From Nitrososphaerota archaeon (GTDB lineage: Archaea; Thermoproteota; Nitrososphaeria; Nitrososphaerales; UBA57), in the NCBI GenBank assembly GCA_002713205.1, contig PAVW01000017.1, forward strand, positions 22,581 to 54,580: a DNA stretch of 32,000 bases, given 5' to 3'. Both the position numbers and the translations under genes were made by a program. Of this stretch, positions 7,223 through 13,769 are shown piece after piece. Below the pieces are notes generated by a model. That model saw nothing but the letters and a program-made list of their open reading frames with translations, searched no databases and was not told where the DNA came from. The first letter of the stretch is position 1. Every line of letters starts with the position of its first letter.

Positions 7223-7498
7223 TCATTTCTTCCATAATACTATTTTATATTGACCTGATCCTGATTTCCAGACACTATACTTTGAAATATATTCAATGAC
7301 TGATTGAGGCACTGCTTTGGTGGCCATTACATGATCAGTTTCTATAATAATTACATCATTTTCGATTTTTTGAATTTGTTCACGTGCTACTATTTGTGGA
7401 TAAGGACATACTTCACCATCCATATTGATTATTTTTGCCGTTTTTTCTAATTGCTTGATTTCTTCATTAGAAATTTCTATTTCAGTTACCATAATCAT
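7223..7498 (-). CDS. TusA/YeeD(TsuB)-like sulfur carrier protein
   Basis: 91 aa with the MDGEVCPYPQI CPxP active-site motif. It starts 6 nt after the YeeE stop, the classical YeeE-YeeD arrangement. Confidence 0.8.
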   Translation of the reverse strand: MIMVTEIEISNEEIKQLEKTAKIINMDGEVCPYPQIVAREQIQKIENDVIIIETDHVMATKAVPQSVIEYISKYSVWKSGSGQYKIVLWKK

Positions 7499-7504
7499 TC
7501 ACCA

Positions 7505-8602
7505 TTAAATCGCACATCCAACTTTTCTAAACATCCAGTGTGTTGCTATATAAACTCCAAGTACTAGACCTAACGATGTTACAAATCCAGACACGGAAAG
7601 AAAAGCTAGACCACTGAATGTATTACTTATGTTACAACCAGGAGCCATTCTAGATCCAAAACCCATGAGCATGCCGCCTATTATTGCATTTTGCACCCTA
7701 TTCTTTTTAATCATTCTTATTTTAAAATCTCCACTGAAATATGCAGATATAAAAGAACCAAAAATTAAAAATAATAACATTATCATATCTAGACTTATGG
7801 AAAAATTTCCTCCTGAAAAAACAACATTATTCCAGTAGATATTTTCTTGCAATGCTTCCATTCCAATTATATTGCTATACGTTAAACCTACCCATCTAGC
7901 TTGAGGACCCGTAACACTAAGTGTCCCCCAAACTATAAACCATAATGTTGCAAAAATTCCCATTCCAAAACCAACAATTTTTGCATCCCAAGCTGATTGT
8001 AGGTTGTTGATAGAAATAGATGAAATATTAAATTTTGATATATTTGTAATTAAACCCAATTGTTGTTTCTTTTTCAAATATAATACACATGATAGTATGA
8101 TCAAAATCGGAACAAGTACTGATGTTTGCCCTAAACTTTCAATTAAGCTAAATCCTTCGAATATTTGTAATGGAGTGAAGAAATATGGAAAGAAAAAGAT
8201 TGAAAATAAAGATGCAAAAATTACATAACCTGCACATGCTGATATGAGCAGTAACCAGTAGTGTAAGTATCCTTCCCCTGCTCTATACAGTGTACCTGAT
8301 GCACAACCTCCTCCATATACCATTCCGATTCCGAATACAAATCCACCTATTATGTTGCTTAATCCATAATTTGGTATCCAAAAATGCGAATTTGAAACTC
8401 CTAATGAATATGCTATGCTTGTACCTAACATCATGGTTATAATTCCAATTAATAGACCATACAGTACTCTAGTATCTTTGAATGCTACATAATCTCTTAA
8501 CGCACTAGTAAAACAAAATCTTCCTTTTTGTAATAATACTCCAAATCCTATTCCAATTATAATCGTTAAAATTAAACTTAATAATCCTGAATATTCAATC
8601 AA
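7505..8602 (-). CDS. YeeE/YedE-family (Sulf_transp) membrane permease, thiosulfate/selenium-compound transporter-like
   Basis: 365 aa and polytopic. It has three Cys-containing re-entrant motifs, RFC30FTS, GGGC100ASG and APGC323NIS, mirroring the conserved Cys triad of YeeE. The start is TTG. Confidence 0.9.
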   Translation of the reverse strand: MIEYSGLLSLILTIIIGIGFGVLLQKGRFCFTSALRDYVAFKDTRVLYGLLIGIITMMLGTSIAYSLGVSNSHFWIPNYGLSNIIGGFVFGIGMVYGGGCASGTLYRAGEGYLHYWLLLISACAGYVIFASLFSIFFFPYFFTPLQIFEGFSLIESLGQTSVLVPILIILSCVLYLKKKQQLGLITNISKFNISSISINNLQSAWDAKIVGFGMGIFATLWFIVWGTLSVTGPQARWVGLTYSNIIGMEALQENIYWNNVVFSGGNFSISLDMIMLLFLIFGSFISAYFSGDFKIRMIKKNRVQNAIIGGMLMGFGSRMAPGCNISNTFSGLAFLSVSGFVTSLGLVLGVYIATHWMFRKVGCAI

Positions 8603-8607
8603 TTATA

Positions 8608-9750
8608 TTATCCTCCACAGTTGAAATTAGCGCCTATTACTTTCCTAGCTTCAGTATTTGGACCACTTTTACCTGATTCTCCCATTATATTAAAAAACTG
8701 GACATTATGAGGACCATTTCCAGTTTCCAAGACTGTTACTATTTCCATTTTCTGTATGTCTATTATTGATACGGTAGCATCACCACTATTAGTTACATAT
8801 GCAAATTTTCCTTCAGGATCTATATCGATATTATGTGGAGATTTACCTGTTTCCAATTCCTTTATTATTTCTAGTGTTTTTACATCAATTATTAATAATT
8901 TATTCATTTCAGGTATGGTGACAAGTAAATTCTTATCATCTTTTGTCACTGCTAATCCATGAGGTGTTGATTCTAATATTATCTCACCGGGCTCTACAAA
9001 ACGAAAATTTGCCCTACCAAAAATTCTATCTAAAATATCATCTAATACTAATATTCTAGCTGGTATTTTTCGTATTTTATCGTCTACTTCTGCCGTCCCA
9101 ATAAAGATTTTCTTATTATTATGGCCTGAAACTATCATCAAAGGTTCAGATTTCAACCTGATATTCTTCACAACTTTTTCTTCATTAATATCAATAAATG
9201 ATAAAGTTCTAGATTTTGTATTTGTTACAACAGCTATATCATCATAACGTGCTACATGGTGAGGTGCTTCCTGTACTCTTATTTCTGAAATTATTCTATC
9301 GGAAGTCGTATTCAGTAAAATTAATGAATTCGTATCTCTGCTAACAACAAAAAACACTTCTTCTTTTTCATCAAATATGCCTGCATGTTGAATATTTTCA
9401 CCTATGGGGATCTTGTATTTTATTTCTAGCGTTTGTGGATTTAATACTAGTATTTCAGATTGTCCATGATGAATTAAATATAGTTTGTTAAGTTTACTAT
9501 TGAAATGCGCACCATACTGACCAGAGCTAATTTCTAATGGTATTTCCGTTACAATATTAAAATTAATTGGATCAACTATAGTGACTGTTCCTGATATAGT
9601 ATTAAATATCACCGCTTCATATGTATTGGATTCATTTGATATCGAATGGTAAATGAAAGTTCCACCAATCAAAAATCCTATTACTAGACCTGTTAATAGA
9701 GCCGCTCTAATGAGGAACTTCTTATTTCCAGTCTTTGACAACTTTTCCAC
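8608..9750 (-). CDS. Membrane-anchored YVTN-type beta-propeller repeat protein with a C-terminal Cys-Gly-Gly
   Basis: It has an N-terminal hydrophobic anchor (FLIRAALLTGLVIGFLIGGTFIY). It has repeated units of the form GKSPHNIDIDPEGKFAYVTNSGDATVSIID and GNGPHNV. It ends NFNCGG-stop (Cys codon 8617-8619). Confidence 0.75.
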   Translation of the reverse strand: MEKLSKTGNKKFLIRAALLTGLVIGFLIGGTFIYHSISNESNTYEAVIFNTISGTVTIVDPINFNIVTEIPLEISSGQYGAHFNSKLNKLYLIHHGQSEILVLNPQTLEIKYKIPIGENIQHAGIFDEKEEVFFVVSRDTNSLILLNTTSDRIISEIRVQEAPHHVARYDDIAVVTNTKSRTLSFIDINEEKVVKNIRLKSEPLMIVSGHNNKKIFIGTAEVDDKIRKIPARILVLDDILDRIFGRANFRFVEPGEIILESTPHGLAVTKDDKNLLVTIPEMNKLLIIDVKTLEIIKELETGKSPHNIDIDPEGKFAYVTNSGDATVSIIDIQKMEIVTVLETGNGPHNVQFFNIMGESGKSGPNTEARKVIGANFNCGG

Positions 9751-9773
9751 TATTGATTTACTTTATTATTTAT

Positions 9774-12462: not shown

Positions 12463-12709
12463 TTTGAGTAAACAATCTAACATAAAAACACTGGATTTAA
12501 AAGGTCAGATTTGTCCTTGGCCGGTTATTTTTACAATGAAAGAACTGCAGAAAATGAACGATGGTGACATTCTTAAAGTTACAATAGATCATTTACCTTC
12601 TACGTTAAATATACCTGCAGCTGCTTCAAAGGAGGGCAATGAGGTTGTTAGTTCTACCGAGATTGGTGATGGTGTTTTTCAAATTGAAATTAAACACAAT
12701 ATAATCTAG
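12452..12709 (+). CDS. TusA-like sulfur carrier protein (paralog 2)
   Basis: 85 aa with the LDLKGQICPWPVIFTMKEL CPxP motif. It overlaps the SelD-like gene end by 11 nt. Confidence 0.8.
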   Translation: MKIDLSKQSNIKTLDLKGQICPWPVIFTMKELQKMNDGDILKVTIDHLPSTLNIPAAASKEGNEVVSSTEIGDGVFQIEIKHNII

Positions 12710-12735
12710 TAATCTGTTTAACTAGGTGTTGAAAA

Positions 12736-12963
12736 TTGAAAATCGATAGATCGTTAGATGTTAAAGGTCTTGTTTGTCCTGTTCCTGTACTGAAGACTAA
12801 ACAAATTATATCTAAAATGAATTCTGGCCAGATTCTTGAAATTTTAGCTACAGATAAAGCAGCTAAAGATGACATTCCATCTTGGGCACAACGAGAAGGA
12901 CATGATGTTTTAGATGTTGCCGAACATGAAAATATTTTCACATTTTATTTAAGGAAGAAGTAA
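12736..12963 (+). CDS. TusA-like sulfur carrier protein (paralog 3)
   Basis: 75 aa with LDVKGLVCPVPVLKTKQ, the canonical TusA/SirA motif. The start is TTG at 12736. Confidence 0.85.
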   Translation: MKIDRSLDVKGLVCPVPVLKTKQIISKMNSGQILEILATDKAAKDDIPSWAQREGHDVLDVAEHENIFTFYLRKK

Positions 12964-12965
12964 CT

Positions 12966-13769
12966 ATGACTAATATATTAGTGTCTAGTGAATGGGTCAA
13001 AGATCATCTTGATGATGAACATTTGATTTTTTTTGATATTCGTTCTCCTCGTGAATACAACAATGGTCATTTACCCAATTCTGTTCTAATACCATATGAA
13101 AAAATCTTAGATTTTTCACCTGATACGCCATTTTTTGATATAGCTGATAAAACAACTATTGAACAACTATTGGGAGAAAATGGTGTTGATAATGATACTA
13201 AAATTATTGTTTATGGTGACAAAGGTGGTTCAACCGCATCGAGGCTTTTTTGGACCCTTTTATTTTATGGTGCTAATGTAAACTTCCTTGATATAAGTTA
13301 TTCAAAATGGGTTAATTTAGGTTATCCTGTTACCACTGAAGTATATGCTCCTGGTAAAACTACTTTTATTGCTAATGAAAATCCAGATAATTTTCGTGTA
13401 AATAGCGATTATGTATTGTCAAAAATTCAAGATCAAGATACAATCATTCTTGATACTCGTAGTAAAGAAGAATATCAGGGATTAATTGCGGCAGGTCCAA
13501 AAGCTGGAAGAATTCCCAATTCTAAACACTTTCCATGGGAAAAGGCTATCGGTGTTGACGGTAATATATTTCACACTACTGAAGAACTTTCTAGTATATT
13601 TGATAATTATGGACTTCAAAATAAAGAAATAATATGTTATTGTCAGGTAGGAGAACGTGCTTCTCATACTTTTCTTGCTTTGAAGATTTGTGGCTATTCA
13701 AATGTTAAAATATATGACAGATCTTTTGCAGATTGGAGTAATAATTCTAATATGCCAATTGAGATATAA
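12966..13769 (+). CDS. Tandem-rhodanese sulfurtransferase (thiosulfate/3-mercaptopyruvate sulfurtransferase family)
   Basis: 267 aa with two rhodanese domains. The first is inactive (VYGDKGGSTASR). The second carries the active-site loop CYCQVGERASH. It starts 2 nt after TusA paralog 3. Confidence 0.9.
   Translation: MTNILVSSEWVKDHLDDEHLIFFDIRSPREYNNGHLPNSVLIPYEKILDFSPDTPFFDIADKTTIEQLLGENGVDNDTKIIVYGDKGGSTASRLFWTLLFYGANVNFLDISYSKWVNLGYPVTTEVYAPGKTTFIANENPDNFRVNSDYVLSKIQDQDTIILDTRSKEEYQGLIAAGPKAGRIPNSKHFPWEKAIGVDGNIFHTTEELSSIFDNYGLQNKEIICYCQVGERASHTFLALKICGYSNVKIYDRSFADWSNNSNMPIEI

What the first reader, a model, noticed from the sequence alone, without database searches (positions are those of the whole stretch)
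7223..13769. Divergent 8-gene sulfur/selenium-trafficking locus combining a permease, a carrier relay, an ATP-dependent SelD-like enzyme and exported beta-propellers
**Organisation.** Two tightly packed operons diverge from one 67-nt control region.
- The minus-strand arm runs from 10958 to 7223: Tat-exported propeller, 23-nt gap, membrane-anchored YVTN propeller, 5-nt gap, YeeE/YedE permease, 6-nt gap, TusA/YeeD-like carrier.
- The plus-strand arm runs from 11026 to 13769: SelD-like enzyme, 11-nt overlap, TusA-like 2, 26-nt gap, TusA-like 3, 2-nt gap, tandem rhodanese.

**What is already known.** YeeE-YeeD (TsuA-TsuB) is a thiosulfate uptake pair. Comparative genomics of selenium utilisation has reported YedE/YedF-type genes co-occurring with SelD.

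**What is not.** As far as I know, this full combination is not a described pathway: two extracytoplasmic propellers, a permease, three TusA paralogs, a rhodanese and a long, divergent SelD-like enzyme, in a genome that looks like an ammonia-oxidising archaeon.

**Working hypothesis (inference).** A chalcogen compound is captured or processed outside the cell, imported, relayed as a persulfide or perselenide by rhodanese and TusA, and activated with ATP by the SelD-like enzyme, for example to thiophosphate or selenophosphate.
Basis: partly seen in the sequence, partly recalled or inferred. Interest (0 to 1): 0.85.

Follow-up and report, generated by a model that had tools for sequence, protein, structure and literature searches.

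The report
Archaeal sulfur-import locus with SelD-like enzyme
A small-genome deep-sea archaeon that seems unable to reduce sulfate carries a conserved eight-gene cluster that probably captures reduced sulfur outside the cell, imports it, and hands it to an uncharacterised ATP-using relative of the selenium-activating enzyme SelD.

Summary
All eight genes are real, at the stated coordinates, and belong to the stated families.

The interpretation needs three corrections.
- **Prior description.** The 478-aa enzyme belongs to a family described computationally in 2014 (Li et al., PMC4210487) and covered by NCBIfam NF038049. That paper already reported TusA and rhodanese neighbours and proposed thiophosphate synthesis. 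I found no experimental test.
- **Host.** The host is not an ammonia oxidiser. The full locus occurs only in heterotrophic marine Thaumarchaeota (HMT/HMN). Published tables show this lineage almost always lacks sat/cysI, usually keeps cysM, and has no selD/selA/PSTK.
- **Conserved core.** The core across archaea is TusA plus SelD-like, often with a YeeE/YedE-family permease, an acylphosphatase or a rhodanese.

Three things look new.
- The family extends to cold marine archaea.
- The locus includes a clade-restricted pair of extracytoplasmic seven-bladed propellers. One ends in an invariant SoxY-like C-terminal "NCG(G)" cysteine arm.
- The shared promoter region carries an invariant operator-like element.

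Best reading: reduced sulfur, probably thiosulfate or sulfane sulfur, is captured, imported through YeeE, relayed by TusA and rhodanese, and processed with ATP for assimilation. Substrate and chemistry are untested. This is a new variant of a known kind, of moderate to high interest.

The parts
7223..7498 (-). TusA1: small TusA/YeeD-like sulfur carrier, last gene of the minus arm, 6 nt downstream of the permease gene. Single Cys31 in a CPYP motif.
   Evidence: Pfam TusA 28.0 bits (gathering score 28.6). NCBIfam YeeD 25 bits and YedF 23.6 bits, both below cutoff. The EVCPYPQI motif is invariant in 5 HMT orthologs. A TusA gene follows YeeE in L086 and L087 as well.
7505..8602 (-). YeeE/TsuA-arrangement permease of the YeeE/YedE family, with three cysteine motifs: RFCF (C30), GGGCASG (C100) and PGCN (C323).
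   Evidence: Pfam Sulf_transp 181 bits over the full length. TsuA models align over the full length but below equivalog cutoffs (131 of 400; 114 of 645). The Cys motifs are conserved in orthologs and, in permuted order, in the Thermoprotei permeases.
8608..9750 (-). PropB: YVTN beta-propeller with an N-terminal membrane anchor (KTGNKK followed by a hydrophobic helix, about residues 12-34) and an invariant C-terminal SANFNCGG tail after a variable linker. Candidate extracytoplasmic sulfur-carrier arm.
   Evidence: TIGR02276 61.9 bits against a cutoff of 27.85. The tail is conserved in every full-length family member, down to the 36%-identical L086 protein, which ends SANFNCG. It is absent from the generic YVTN homologs. 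SoxY's C-terminal GGCGG Cys binds sulfur substrates (PMC6067878).
9774..10958 (-). PropA: Tat-signal (RRDFIK) 7-bladed beta-propeller, first gene of the minus arm. The family is restricted to this marine clade.
   Evidence: TIGR01409 20.6 bits against 16.7. Only 22 close homologs (68-96% identity), then a gap to generic YVTN proteins. AF2 pLDDT 78; Foldseek top hits are YVTN propellers (1l0q 2e-14, hydrazine synthase beta, NirF, QHNDH beta, YncE). 24% identity to PropB over 218 aa, E 8e-6.
10959..11025 (.). 67-nt divergent control region. The 22-nt block ATAATGCCGTTATATTTATATA (10971-10992) is invariant. It contains opposed TATA-like boxes and overlaps an imperfect palindrome, TATAATG-C-CGTTATA (10970-10984).
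   Evidence: The block is identical in the window and 7 HMT loci, while the flanking intergenic bases vary and the proteins are only about 80% identical. In L087 a related palindrome, TATAACG-CC-CGTTATA, occurs twice: upstream of the extra exported-protein gene and upstream of PropA. Sequence read.
11026..12462 (+). SelD-like PurM-superfamily enzyme (NF038049 family). Counterparts of the SelD catalytic residues: C28-x-x-K31, D61, D173, N196, D200, D362. It also has a family-specific insert of about 105 aa (about residues 66-170) carrying an invariant GKGHSI motif.
   Evidence: NF038049 552 bits against a cutoff of 250; SelD models 38.9 of 291 and 15.5 of 125. The listed residues are invariant in a 25-sequence alignment. 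AF2 pLDDT 92.2; Foldseek top hits are SelD 3u0o, 3fd5, 5l16 and 2yye, then HypE, ThiL and PurM. hhalign against E. coli SelD pairs N196 with N87, D200 with D91 and D362 with D227.
12452..12709 (+). TusA2: TusA-family carrier (CPWP Cys21) whose gene overlaps the end of the SelD-like gene by 11 nt. It is the most widely conserved partner of the enzyme.
   Evidence: Pfam TusA 68 bits. A TusA gene lies next to SelD-like in 60 of 80 loci. In Thermoprotei the adjacent copy matches TusA2 best, with E-values from 4e-13 to 1e-19.
12736..12963 (+). TusA3: second TusA-family carrier of the plus arm (CPVP Cys14).
   Evidence: Pfam TusA 87 bits; NCBIfam TusA PRK00299 57.5 bits against a cutoff of 78. Present with SelD-like in Thaumarchaeota loci L001-L012.
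12966..13769 (+). Tandem-domain rhodanese sulfurtransferase with its catalytic loop (C226-QVGER) in the C-terminal domain.
   Evidence: Pfam Rhodanese 121 bits in 2 stretches. 3-MST-like model 103 bits against a cutoff of 250. Cys positions. A homologous tandem rhodanese lies next to SelD-like in 18 loci, including Thaumarchaeota, a Halobacteria MAG and some Thermoprotei.

Best explanation
The locus is the version carried by heterotrophic marine Thaumarchaeota of an archaeal sulfur-import and sulfur-activation module.

**Shown.**
- Two tightly packed operons diverge from a strictly conserved promoter/operator region.
- The minus arm encodes two extracytoplasmic 7-bladed propellers, a YeeE-type permease with its three cysteine motifs, and a YeeD-like TusA. 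One propeller has a Tat signal. The other is membrane-anchored and ends in an invariant Cys-Gly-Gly tail.
- The plus arm encodes a SelD-like PurM-superfamily enzyme that retains counterparts of every SelD catalytic residue, two TusA carriers and a tandem rhodanese.

**Inferred mechanism.**
1. A reduced sulfur species, most likely thiosulfate or sulfane sulfur, is bound outside the cell. It may sit covalently on the PropB cysteine arm, as on SoxY.
2. It passes through YeeE.
3. It is trapped as a persulfide or thiosulfonate on TusA1, as shown for bacterial YeeE-YeeD.
4. Rhodanese, TusA2 and TusA3 relay it to Cys28 of the SelD-like enzyme.
5. The enzyme spends ATP to convert it into an activated or released form. 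Thiophosphate, by analogy with selenophosphate, is the leading but unproven candidate.

**Inferred role.** The locus supplies reduced sulfur for cysteine and cofactor synthesis in a streamlined lineage that lacks assimilatory sulfate reduction.
For: **Gene families and signals.**

**SelD-like fold and residues.**
- AF2 pLDDT is 92, and Foldseek ranks SelD structures first.
- C28/K31, D61, D173, N196, D200 and D362 are invariant in 25 family members. Three of these pairings are confirmed by hhalign against E. coli SelD.

**Cross-phylum linkage, from 80 loci.**
- TusA lies next to SelD-like in 60 loci.
- A YeeE/YedE-family permease is present in 29 loci.
  - About 22 of these are Thermoprotei loci where permease, TusA and SelD-like are adjacent. 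In most of them the three genes are co-directional; in the Ignisphaera-type loci the permease is divergent.
- A rhodanese is present in 18 loci.
- Two different topologies of the permease family are linked to TusA-SelD-like: the TsuA arrangement here, and a circularly permuted YedE arrangement in Thermoprotei. This argues for functional coupling rather than inherited synteny.

**Extracytoplasmic arm.**
- PropB's SANFNCG(G) tail is conserved down to 36% identity, while the preceding linker varies.
- PropA-PropB-YeeE-TusA stay contiguous in the divergent contigs L086 and L087.

**Functional precedents in the literature.**
- YeeD/TsuB is required for YeeE-mediated uptake, and it cleaves thiosulfate to give its own persulfide (PMC11073785 abstract; PMC11582611).
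- In H. denitrificans the proposed route runs from the SoxYZ Cys arm through the YeeE-like SoxT1A to a rhodanese, DsrE and TusA.
- The C-terminal Cys of SoxY's GGCGG sequence binds sulfur.

**Lineage context, Table S5 of PMC13374868, 45 HMN genomes.**

| Gene | Genomes with it |
|---|---|
| sat | 2/45 |
| cysI | 2/45 |
| cysC | 3/45 |
| cysM (K12339) | 39/45 |
| K01011 rhodanese | 37/45 |
| selD, selA, PSTK | 0/45 |

The paper also reports that HMN proteins are depleted in Cys and Met.

**Shared control region.** A 22-nt block is invariant in 8 genomes.
Against: - No experiment exists for any member of the SelD-like family. The 2026 review still calls its role 'speculated'.
- No enzyme that would consume thiophosphate is known or visible here.
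- Within HMT, the flanking genes (GT2, UbiA, PAS, rhomboid, PEP mutase) are syntenic too. Conservation of the 8-gene block among these close relatives therefore says little about function. The link between the propellers and sulfur rests on operon packing, location and the Cys tail only.
- Both propellers match only generic, mostly non-catalytic YVTN scaffolds.
- Groundwater Thaumarchaeota have the SelD-like arm with no YeeE or propellers within 10 kb (L010).
- The acylphosphatase that accompanies SelD-like in 41 of 80 loci is absent from the whole window. The HMT chemistry may therefore differ from that of most family members.
- The YeeE and TusA1 scores are below every equivalog cutoff, so the substrate cannot be assigned by homology.
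- The sulfur-assimilation gap is documented for the lineage, not for this particular genome.
Confidence: 0.5

Rival explanations
1. It is a selenium system. The permease imports a selenium species, the TusA proteins carry perselenide, and the SelD-like enzyme makes selenophosphate or a related donor for a selenium use that is not yet known.
For: - The enzyme keeps the SelD Cys-x-x-Lys motif and all metal/ATP ligands.
- SelD is its nearest fold.
- In Thermoprotei the linked permease aligns colinearly with the YedE/FdhT 'selenium metabolism' model, and the linked TusA is closest to YedF. This mirrors the bacterial YedE-YedF-SelD association (PMC5322559).
- Li et al. did not exclude selenium.
Against: - True SelD models score far below cutoff: 15.5 of 125 and 38.9 of 291.
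- The YedE and YedF matches are also below cutoff.
- 0 of 45 HMN genomes have selD, selA or PSTK. The Crenarchaeota that carry the family have no known selenium trait.
- The context elsewhere is sulfur-related:
  - tandem rhodanese and DsrE;
  - Hdr-like genes and SQR in L012;
  - APS reductase co-occurrence.
- Selenium is far scarcer than reduced sulfur needs would justify for a 1-Mb genome (inference).
Confidence: 0.1
2. The physiological frame is the same (sulfur import and relay), but the SelD-like enzyme does not make thiophosphate. Like HypE or ThiL, it uses ATP to modify a carrier-bound or small-molecule substrate. For example, it could activate or cleave a TusA-bound thiosulfonate or persulfide through a phosphorylated intermediate. 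In most lineages an acylphosphatase would then hydrolyse that intermediate.
For: - HypE and ThiL folds score almost as well as SelD.
- The only PDB hit by sequence profile is HypE.
- There is a family-specific insert of about 105 aa with an invariant GKGHSI motif that SelD lacks.
- An acylphosphatase is fused or adjacent in 41 of 80 loci. This recalls the acylphosphatase domain of HypF, which works with HypE (established knowledge).
- TusA2 is translationally coupled to the enzyme.
Against: - The SelD-specific Cys-x-x-Lys motif is not found in the other PurM-superfamily families (PMC4210487).
- HMT loci lack the acylphosphatase.
Confidence: 0.17
3. The locus serves dissimilatory sulfur oxidation or detoxification of reactive sulfur species rather than assimilation.
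For: - In L012 the SelD-like-TusA-rhodanese genes sit beside HdrA/B/C-like genes and a type III SQR.
- In Sulfolobales the family neighbours DsrE and TusA.
- A YeeE gene is strongly induced on sulfur in sulfur-oxidising Sulfolobaceae (PMC11323534).
Against: - No Hdr, Sox, SQR or DsrE gene lies in the 32-kb window.
- HMN are described as obligate chemoorganoheterotrophs that lack sulfur energy metabolism.
- An ATP-consuming step suits assimilation better than energy gain (inference).
Confidence: 0.1
4. The two arms are functionally separate. The propellers are ordinary cell-surface or S-layer-type proteins that merely share an operon with YeeE, and the Cys tail has a structural or anchoring role.
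For: - The best structural match of PropA is an archaeal S-layer YVTN domain.
- The propellers are absent from every non-HMT SelD-like locus.
- The nearest non-HMT relative of PropA has an uninformative context.
- Flanking synteny in HMT is conserved anyway.
Against: - The gaps to YeeE and between the propellers are only 5 and 23 nt.
- The order PropA-PropB-YeeE-TusA persists where PropB has diverged to 36% identity.
- A C-terminal Cys-Gly(-Gly) that stays invariant behind a variable linker is the signature of a carrier arm.
- The shared invariant operator sits directly upstream of PropA.
Confidence: 0.13

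Closest known systems
SelD-like family of Li et al. 2014 (BMC Genomics 15:908), which is NCBIfam NF038049 'SelD-related putative sulfur metabolism protein'
   Same: - Full-length match at 552 bits (cutoff 250).
- Same Cys-x-x-Lys motif and Asp/Asn ligand set.
- Same TusA/SirA-like and rhodanese neighbours.
- Same still-untested thiophosphate hypothesis.
   Different: - The family was described only from hyperthermophilic Sulfolobales and Thermoproteales. Here it is in a cold, oxic, marine heterotrophic thaumarchaeon.
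- Homologs also occur in MAGs labelled Halobacteria, Methanobacteriota, Hydrothermarchaeales, Desulfurococcales and Acidobacteriota.
- There is no acylphosphatase (fused or adjacent) and no DsrE in this locus.
- The locus has a YeeE arm and propellers that the 2014 paper did not report.
Selenophosphate synthetase SelD (selenide, water dikinase)
   Same: - PurM-superfamily fold; SelD is the nearest solved structure.
- Counterparts of catalytic C17/K20 and of D51/D68/N87/D91/D227 are all present.
- The Cys sits on a low-confidence, probably mobile, N-terminal loop.
   Different: - About 15% sequence identity.
- It fails the SelD models (15.5 of 125; 38.9 of 291).
- It is 478 aa, against 347 aa for E. 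coli SelD, because of a conserved insert of about 105 aa.
- The lineage has no selenium-utilisation genes.
YeeE/TsuA-YeeD/TsuB thiosulfate uptake pair (E. coli, Spirochaeta thermophila)
   Same: - Full-length Sulf_transp permease with three cysteine motifs.
- A TusA-like CPxP protein is encoded immediately adjacent.
   Different: - Scores are far below the equivalog cutoffs, so the substrate is not assignable.
- It is preceded by two exported propellers.
- It is coupled through a shared promoter to a SelD-like enzyme.
SoxYZ -> SoxT1A (YeeE-like) -> rhodanese/DsrE/TusA route proposed for Hyphomicrobium denitrificans (PMC11582611)
   Same: The logic is the same: an extracytoplasmic protein with a C-terminal glycine-flanked cysteine arm, a YeeE-family channel, and cytoplasmic rhodanese and TusA acceptors.
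   Different: - The arm is on a YVTN propeller, not on the SoxY fold.
- No SoxXAB or sHdr genes are present.
- The endpoint is an ATP-dependent SelD-like enzyme rather than an oxidising complex.
- The organism is an archaeon.
Bacterial YedE-YedF-SelD selenium gene association (PMC5322559)
   Same: It is a trio of permease, TusA-like carrier and SelD-type enzyme. The Thermoprotei versions of the module even share the YedE arrangement of the permease.
   Different: - The window permease has the TsuA arrangement, not the YedE arrangement.
- The carriers lack the DsrE-like second domain of TIGR03527-type YedF.
- The enzyme is the SelD-like paralog, and no selenium trait is present.

Membership tests
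SelD-like / NF038049 (Li et al. 2014) | Full-length match to the curated family model above its cutoff | tested here: met
   552 bits against a cutoff of 250; residues 6-472 align to model positions 2-464 of 465.
SelD-like / NF038049 (Li et al. 2014) | N-terminal Cys-x-x-Lys plus the SelD Asp/Asn metal and ATP ligands | tested here: met
   C28, K31, D61, D173, N196, D200 and D362 are invariant in 25 sequences. The pairings N196/N87, D200/D91 and D362/D227 come from hhalign. The others come from local motif comparison with E. coli SelD, read from L081.
SelD-like / NF038049 (Li et al. 2014) | Adjacent TusA/SirA-like gene | tested here: met
   TusA2 overlaps the enzyme gene by 11 nt. TusA is adjacent in 60 of 80 loci.
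SelD-like / NF038049 (Li et al. 2014) | Restriction to hyperthermophilic Sulfolobales and Thermoproteales, as originally described | tested here: not met
   The family is present in marine and groundwater Thaumarchaeota, and in MAGs labelled Halobacteria, Methanobacteriota, Hydrothermarchaeales, Desulfurococcales and others. This revises the known distribution. It does not exclude membership.
SelD-like / NF038049 (Li et al. 2014) | ATP-dependent formation of a thiophosphate compound | not testable with these tools
   This is a hypothesis only, in the literature as well.
Bona fide SelD (TIGR00476 / PRK14105) | Score above the equivalog cutoff | tested here: not met
   15.5 bits against 125, and 38.9 bits against 291. 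phmmer against PDB sequences gives no hit.
Bona fide SelD (TIGR00476 / PRK14105) | Co-occurrence with a selenium-utilisation trait (SelA/PSTK/SepSecS/SelB, YbbB, YqeB/C) | tested here: not met
   At lineage level only: selD, selA and PSTK KOs are 0 of 45 in HMN genomes (Table S5 of PMC13374868). The genome of this window could not be examined.
YeeE/TsuA thiosulfate transporter | Full-length Sulf_transp domain with three conserved cysteines | tested here: met
   181 bits, residues 26-352 to model positions 1-310 of 310. C30, C100 and C323 lie in the RFCF, GGCASG and PGCN motifs. C30 and C100 are conserved in 19 and 18 of 20 aligned homologs; the C323 motif is found in permuted position in Thermoprotei. 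A direct alignment to S. thermophila C22/C91/C293 was not made.
YeeE/TsuA thiosulfate transporter | Equivalog-level similarity to characterised TsuA | tested here: not met
   NF052577 131 bits against 400; NF041049 114 bits against 645.
YeeE/TsuA thiosulfate transporter | Adjacent YeeD/TsuB-like TusA protein with a CPxP cysteine | tested here: met
   TusA1 lies 6 nt downstream and has Cys31 in CPYP. However, Pfam gives 28.0 bits (gathering score 28.6) and the YeeD model 25 bits against 147.5.
YeeE/TsuA thiosulfate transporter | Thiosulfate transport activity | not testable with these tools
   Needs a complementation or uptake assay.
SoxY-type sulfur carrier | Glycine-flanked cysteine at the extreme C-terminus on a flexible arm, located outside the cytoplasm | tested here: met
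   ...SANFNCGG-COOH is invariant in the family members ending CGG, and the 36%-identical L086 protein ends SANFNCG. The preceding linker of about 15 aa is variable. An N-terminal anchor predicts an outside location. The reference feature is described in PMC6067878.
SoxY-type sulfur carrier | Homology to, or the fold of, SoxY | tested here: not met
   The protein is a YVTN propeller. No SoxY model appears among the Pfam or NCBIfam matches at E <= 0.01. It may work like SoxY, but it is not a member.
YVTN / 7-bladed beta-propeller | YVTN repeats or a 7-bladed propeller fold | tested here: met
   PropB: TIGR02276 61.9 bits against 27.85. PropA: sub-threshold by sequence, but the AF2 model (pLDDT 78) matches YVTN propellers with Foldseek E-values from 2e-14 to 1e-11.
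Tat-exported protein | Twin-arginine signal peptide | tested here: met
   TIGR01409 20.6 bits against 16.7. The motif NRRDFIKY followed by a hydrophobic stretch is conserved in all 22 orthologs.
Tandem-domain rhodanese (TST/MST type) | Two rhodanese domains with the catalytic Cys loop in the second | tested here: met
   Pfam Rhodanese gives 2 stretches and 121 bits. C226 sits in CQVGER. The 3-MST equivalog cutoff is not reached (103 of 250).

The most novel reading that the evidence does not exclude
PropA and PropB form a previously unknown archaeal extracytoplasmic sulfur-capture device. A beta-propeller carries a SoxY-like swinging Cys-Gly-Gly arm that loads sulfane sulfur or thiosulfate and feeds it to YeeE. 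Inside the cell, the SelD-like enzyme makes thiophosphate as an activated sulfur donor. Together they would be the main sulfur-assimilation route of heterotrophic marine Thaumarchaeota, an abundant uncultured deep-ocean group that cannot reduce sulfate. This would also be the first physiological role for biological thiophosphate.
Probability: 0.15. Interest if true: 0.85.

Novelty: new variant of a known kind. Interest (0 to 1): 0.55.

Why it matters
- **A gap in HMT metabolism.**
  - Heterotrophic marine Thaumarchaeota are reported as the second most abundant thaumarchaeal group in the ocean (PMC13374868). They are uncultured and have genomes of about 1 Mb.
  - Published gene tables show they lack sulfate assimilation, and no paper I could search discusses how they obtain sulfur.
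  - A conserved eight-gene locus in such a streamlined genome is a concrete, testable candidate for that missing step. It would put HMT beside SAR11 as plankton that depend on reduced sulfur.
- **An unstudied enzyme family.**
  - The SelD-like family has been an open biochemical question since 2014.
  - A mesophilic member with a clear import context, and with translationally coupled TusA partners, is a more tractable entry point than the hyperthermophile versions.
- **A possible new carrier type.** A cysteine arm on a propeller would be a new structural solution to extracytoplasmic sulfur carriage.

Tried and rejected
- **Sequence searches of the SelD-like protein against PDB.**
  - The profile search found only a marginal HypE hit.
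  - The single-sequence search found nothing even at E <= 10.
  - The fold search was needed instead.
- **Context of P0144.** This is the nearest non-HMT relative of PropA (24% identity). Its neighbours are an AhpC-HTH fusion, an SDR and urease genes, which is uninformative.
- **'One histidine per blade' in PropB as a metal site.** Dropped, because generic YVTN repeats in the alignment also show PH motifs.
- **Sigma-70 promoter and terminator scan.** No enrichment (32 promoter-like sites against 38 expected), and not applicable to an archaeon. Its one 'terminator' hit in the intergenic region is the operator-like palindrome.
- **Rfam scan.** No riboswitch or other RNA family in the locus, only the flanking tRNA.
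- **Within-HMT conservation as evidence of function.** Rejected as weak, because the flanking genes are syntenic as well.
- **HMT papers.** They do not mention thiosulfate, TusA, rhodanese or SelD in the text. TusA1 appears only as an unnamed ortholog cluster in a supplement.
- **Literature search for an experimentally characterised thiophosphate synthase or SelD-like enzyme.** Nothing found.

Full report
**1. Observation**

The eight ORFs are present exactly as described.

| Arm | Coordinates |
|---|---|
| Minus | 9774-10958, 8608-9750, 7505-8602, 7223-7498 |
| Plus | 11026-12462, 12452-12709, 12736-12963, 12966-13769 |

The spacing is 23, 5 and 6 nt on the minus arm, a 67-nt divergent spacer, and then an 11-nt overlap, 26 nt and 2 nt on the plus arm.

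Profile searches confirm the families.

| Gene | Result |
|---|---|
| 7505-8602 | Full-length Sulf_transp permease, 181 bits |
| 12452-12709, 12736-12963 | Clear TusA proteins, 68 and 87 bits |
| 7223-7498 | Weak TusA, 28.0 bits against a gathering score of 28.6, with a CPYP cysteine |
| 12966-13769 | Two-domain rhodanese, 121 bits |
| 8608-9750 | YVTN-repeat propeller, TIGR02276, 61.9 bits against 27.85 |
| 9774-10958 | Twin-arginine signal, TIGR01409, 20.6 bits against 16.7 |

- The Tat protein gives only sub-threshold propeller hits by sequence. Its AlphaFold2 model (pLDDT 78; residues 1-49 disordered) is a seven-bladed propeller. The closest structures are YVTN domains, hydrazine synthase beta, NirF, QHNDH beta and YncE.
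- The two propellers are distant paralogs: 24% identity over 218 residues, E 8e-6.
- A tRNA gene at 7131-7221 (+) abuts the stop codon of the last minus-arm gene and bounds that operon.

**2. The 478-aa enzyme**

- **Sequence.**
  - Pfam finds nothing.
  - NCBIfam NF038049, 'SelD-related putative sulfur metabolism protein', matches end to end at 552 bits (cutoff 250).
  - True SelD models reach only 38.9 of 291 and 15.5 of 125 bits.
- **Fold.**
  - An AF2 model built on 25 homologs is confident (pLDDT 92.2, pTM 0.91).
  - Foldseek ranks SelD structures first (E. coli 3u0o at 5e-15, human SPS1, Leishmania, Aquifex).
  - HypE, ThiL and PurM follow closely. About 320 of 478 residues are aligned.
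- **Catalytic residues.**
  - In the family alignment, G27-C28-x-V30-K31-V32-D33, R59/D61, N171-N172-D173-T174, N196/D200 and D362-x-x-GPG are invariant.
  - hhalign against E. coli SelD (sequence taken from L081) pairs N196 with N87, D200 with D91 and D362 with D227.
  - Local motif comparison pairs AGCAVKV with AGCGCKI (C28/K31 with C17/K20), RVDAD with RDDAA (D61 with D51) and NNDT with TTDF (D173 with D68).
  - The block containing C28 has the lowest confidence of the folded part (mean pLDDT 66). This fits a mobile loop like the one that carries the catalytic Cys/Sec in SelD (established knowledge).
- **What SelD lacks.** A conserved insert of about 105 residues (about 66-170) carries an invariant GKGHSI motif.
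- **Family size.** An exhaustive HMMER pass over 1.84 billion cluster representatives finds 134 relatives at E <= 1e-3 and 46 at E <= 1e-30. The family is small and distinct.

**3. Prior knowledge**

- Li et al. 2014 (PMC4210487) described this family computationally.
  - They reported it from Sulfolobales and Thermoproteales only.
  - They noted the conserved SelD residues, an acylphosphatase fusion in Thermoproteales, and neighbouring SirA/TusA-like, COG2210 ('Prx-like') and rhodanese genes.
  - They proposed synthesis of a thiophosphate compound from a sulfur donor and ATP.
- A 2026 review still calls the role speculative.
- I found no experimental work.

**4. Who carries the locus**

A scan of one genome per species (185,579 species) returned 80 loci.

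- **Full cluster.**
  - The eight-gene cluster, in the same order and orientation, occurs in L001, L002, L004, L005 and L006.
  - L003 and L007 carry it truncated by contig ends.
  - More divergent metagenome contigs L086 and L087 carry it too.
- **Identity of the hosts.**
  - L006 is UBA223, L005 is ASW8_bin1 and L003 is HMT_ATL.
  - The supplements of PMC7300363 and PMC13374868 list these as heterotrophic marine Thaumarchaeota/Nitrososphaerota.
  - UBA223, for example, is listed at 0.85 Mb and 32% G+C.
- **The window matches them.**
  - It has about 30% G+C.
  - Its SelD-like protein is 79-83% identical to theirs.
  - It shares their flanking genes: GT2, UbiA, PAS, rhomboid and PEP mutase.
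- **Conclusion.** No cultured ammonia oxidiser appears among the hits, so the host is an HMT, not an ammonia oxidiser.

**5. Neighbourhood conservation across archaea**

I clustered all ORFs within 6 kb of the enzyme gene in the 80 loci.

| Neighbour | Loci (of 80) |
|---|---|
| TusA | 60 |
| Acylphosphatase | 32 stand-alone directly downstream, plus 9 fused |
| YeeE/YedE-family permease | 29 |
| Tandem rhodanese | 18 |
| PLP enzyme (Acidilobales only) | 8 |
| HIT | 6 |
| ThiF | 5 |
| DsrE | 5 |

- About 22 loci from Thermoprotei families (Pyrodictiaceae, Desulfurococcales, Acidilobaceae, Thermofilaceae, Ignisphaera, Aeropyrum) have permease, TusA and SelD-like adjacent. In most of them the three genes are co-directional.
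- Those permeases are circular permutations of the window protein.
  - Their cysteine motifs run GCNW, RFCF, GGCAS, against RFCF, GGCAS, PGCN in the window.
  - They align colinearly with the YedE/FdhT model, and their TusA is closest to YedF. All of these matches are below cutoff.
- Two different topologies of the permease family are thus linked to TusA-SelD-like. This is better evidence for functional coupling than synteny among close relatives.
- Groundwater Thaumarchaeota (L008-L011) keep SelD-like, TusA2, TusA3 and rhodanese, with no permease or propellers within 10 kb (L010).
- L012 places the same four genes beside Hdr-like and SQR genes.
- Caveat: because the flanks are also syntenic within HMT, conservation of the eight-gene block inside that clade is weak evidence on its own.

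**6. The propellers**

- **Both families are clade-restricted.**
  - PropA has 22 close homologs (68-96% identity), then a gap to generic YVTN proteins at E >= 3e-7.
  - PropB has about a dozen homologs (36-96% identity) before generic YVTN proteins.
- **PropB topology.** It has an N-terminal lysine-rich segment and one hydrophobic helix, which predicts an outside location for the rest.
- **PropB tail.**
  - Every full-length family member ends in SANFNCGG.
  - The 36%-identical L086 protein ends in SANFNCG, and its stop codon was verified.
  - The roughly 15 preceding residues are hypervariable.
  - None of the generic homologs ends this way.
  - In L086 the neighbouring PropA is 80% identical. 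The tail is therefore held constant while the rest of PropB evolves quickly.
- **Precedents.**
  - A glycine-flanked C-terminal cysteine is the sulfur-binding arm of SoxY (PMC6067878).
  - Li et al. 2024 propose that SoxYZ-bound sulfur enters the cytoplasm through the YeeE-like SoxT1A, to be taken up by a rhodanese, DsrE and TusA (PMC11582611).
- **Reading.** The HMT minus arm has the same logic with a different carrier fold. This is a functional analogy, not homology.

**7. Control region**

- The 67-nt spacer contains a 22-nt block, ATAATGCCGTTATATTTATATA (10971-10992). It is identical in the window and seven HMT loci, while the surrounding intergenic bases vary.
- The block holds opposed TATA-like boxes and overlaps an imperfect palindrome, TATAATG-C-CGTTATA (10970-10984).
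- In L087 an extra 239-aa Tat-signal gene sits between PropA and the enzyme gene. A related palindrome, TATAACG-CC-CGTTATA, occurs there twice, once upstream of each of these two minus-strand genes.
- This supports a shared regulator site for both arms. Co-expression itself is untested.

**8. Physiological context**

Table S5 of PMC13374868 covers 45 HMN genomes.

| Gene | Genomes with it |
|---|---|
| sat | 2 |
| cysI | 2 |
| cysC | 3 |
| cysK | 5 |
| cysM (K12339, S-sulfocysteine synthase) | 39 |
| K01011 tandem rhodanese | 37 |
| selD, selA, PSTK | 0 |

- The authors note that HMN lack sulfite reductase and sulfonate transport, and that their proteins are depleted in Cys and Met.
- Neither HMT paper discusses this locus. 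TusA1 appears only as an unnamed ortholog cluster.
- A lineage without sulfate reduction, with a thiosulfate-type cysteine synthase and a conserved YeeE locus, fits import of reduced sulfur for assimilation. This is an inference at lineage level.

**9. Most likely mechanism, and how sure**

- **Shown:** the anatomy, families, localisation signals, conserved residues and recurrent gene linkage.
- **Inferred:** the steps below.
  1. Capture of thiosulfate or sulfane sulfur outside the cell, possibly on the PropB arm.
  2. Passage through YeeE.
  3. Trapping on TusA1, as shown for YeeD.
  4. Relay through rhodanese, TusA2 and TusA3.
  5. An ATP-dependent step at Cys28 of the SelD-like enzyme.
- I put about 0.5 on this overall frame.
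- Within it, thiophosphate synthesis is the leading candidate for the last step. A HypE-like carrier-modifying chemistry is a serious rival, for three reasons:
  - the family-specific insert;
  - the near-equal structural similarity to HypE and ThiL;
  - the acylphosphatase partner found in half of all loci but missing here.
- Selenium, dissimilatory or detoxifying roles, and 'unrelated propellers' each keep roughly 0.1.

**10. Verdict**

- The enzyme family, its TusA/rhodanese context and the thiophosphate idea are already in the literature.
- New here:
  - the host lineage;
  - the recurrent permease linkage in two topologies;
  - the clade-specific propeller pair with a SoxY-like cysteine arm;
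  - the conserved operator.
- This is a new variant of a known kind. Interest is moderate to high, mainly because it gives a testable answer to how an abundant uncultured deep-sea archaeon obtains sulfur, and a tractable handle on an enzyme family that has been uncharacterised for over a decade.

Noticed in passing
window 7131-7221 (+): A tRNA gene (Rfam RF00005, 38 bits) directly abuts the stop codon of TusA1. ARAGORN calls a 93-nt tRNA at 7130-7222 with an undetermined anticodon, which suggests an intron-containing archaeal tRNA.
   Followed up: partly
window 25170-26267 (+): A bacterial-type S-adenosylmethionine synthetase (Pfam S-AdoMet_synt N, M and C domains, all strong) in an archaeal genome. 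It may reflect bacterial gene acquisition in this lineage.
   Followed up: no
L019-L068 (Thermoprotei loci), e.g. L026 8491-9738: The permease linked to TusA-SelD-like in Thermoprotei is a circular permutation of the window YeeE. The order of Cys motifs is GCNW, RFCF, GGCAS. It is colinear with the YedE/FdhT 'selenium' model but below cutoff (119-150 bits against 350).
   Followed up: yes
32 loci, e.g. L026 11442-11726; fused in L052, L070, L074-L080: A stand-alone acylphosphatase of about 94 aa lies immediately downstream of SelD-like in many orders, not only as the Thermoproteales fusion reported in 2014. It is absent from HMT loci and from the whole window.
   Followed up: yes
L087 7228-7947 (-): A divergent HMT-like contig has a ninth gene between PropA and SelD-like. 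It encodes a 239-aa protein with a PropA-like Tat signal and no Pfam domain, and it has its own copy of the operator palindrome.
   Followed up: partly
L086 523-1608: PropB has diverged to 36% identity while the PropA fragment encoded next to it is 80% identical to the window's PropA. The SANFNCG tail is still retained, so PropB evolves fast except for its tail.
   Followed up: partly
L012 (407-kb contig labelled Acidobacteriota): SelD-like-TusA-rhodanese-TusA sits beside HdrA/B/C-like genes, an EtfA-like gene and a type III SQR. Several neighbours match archaeal-type models best, so the bacterial label may reflect misbinning or lateral transfer.
   Followed up: partly
window 13771-14028 (-): An 85-aa ORF convergent with the rhodanese gene has no Pfam hit but is conserved next to the rhodanese in all seven HMT loci (cluster 16).
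   Followed up: no
window 17396-18280 (+): A PEP-mutase/isocitrate-lyase-family gene lies among glycosyltransferase genes, and the same arrangement is conserved in the HMT loci. This could indicate phosphonate decoration of the cell surface.
   Followed up: no
PMC13374868 Table S5, columns 8-11 (OceanDNA-a24, a854, a856, a857): These four HMN genomes lack the K01011 rhodanese. All four have cysK and three have metB. There may be an HMN subclade without this locus and with a different sulfur-amino-acid gene set.
   Followed up: no
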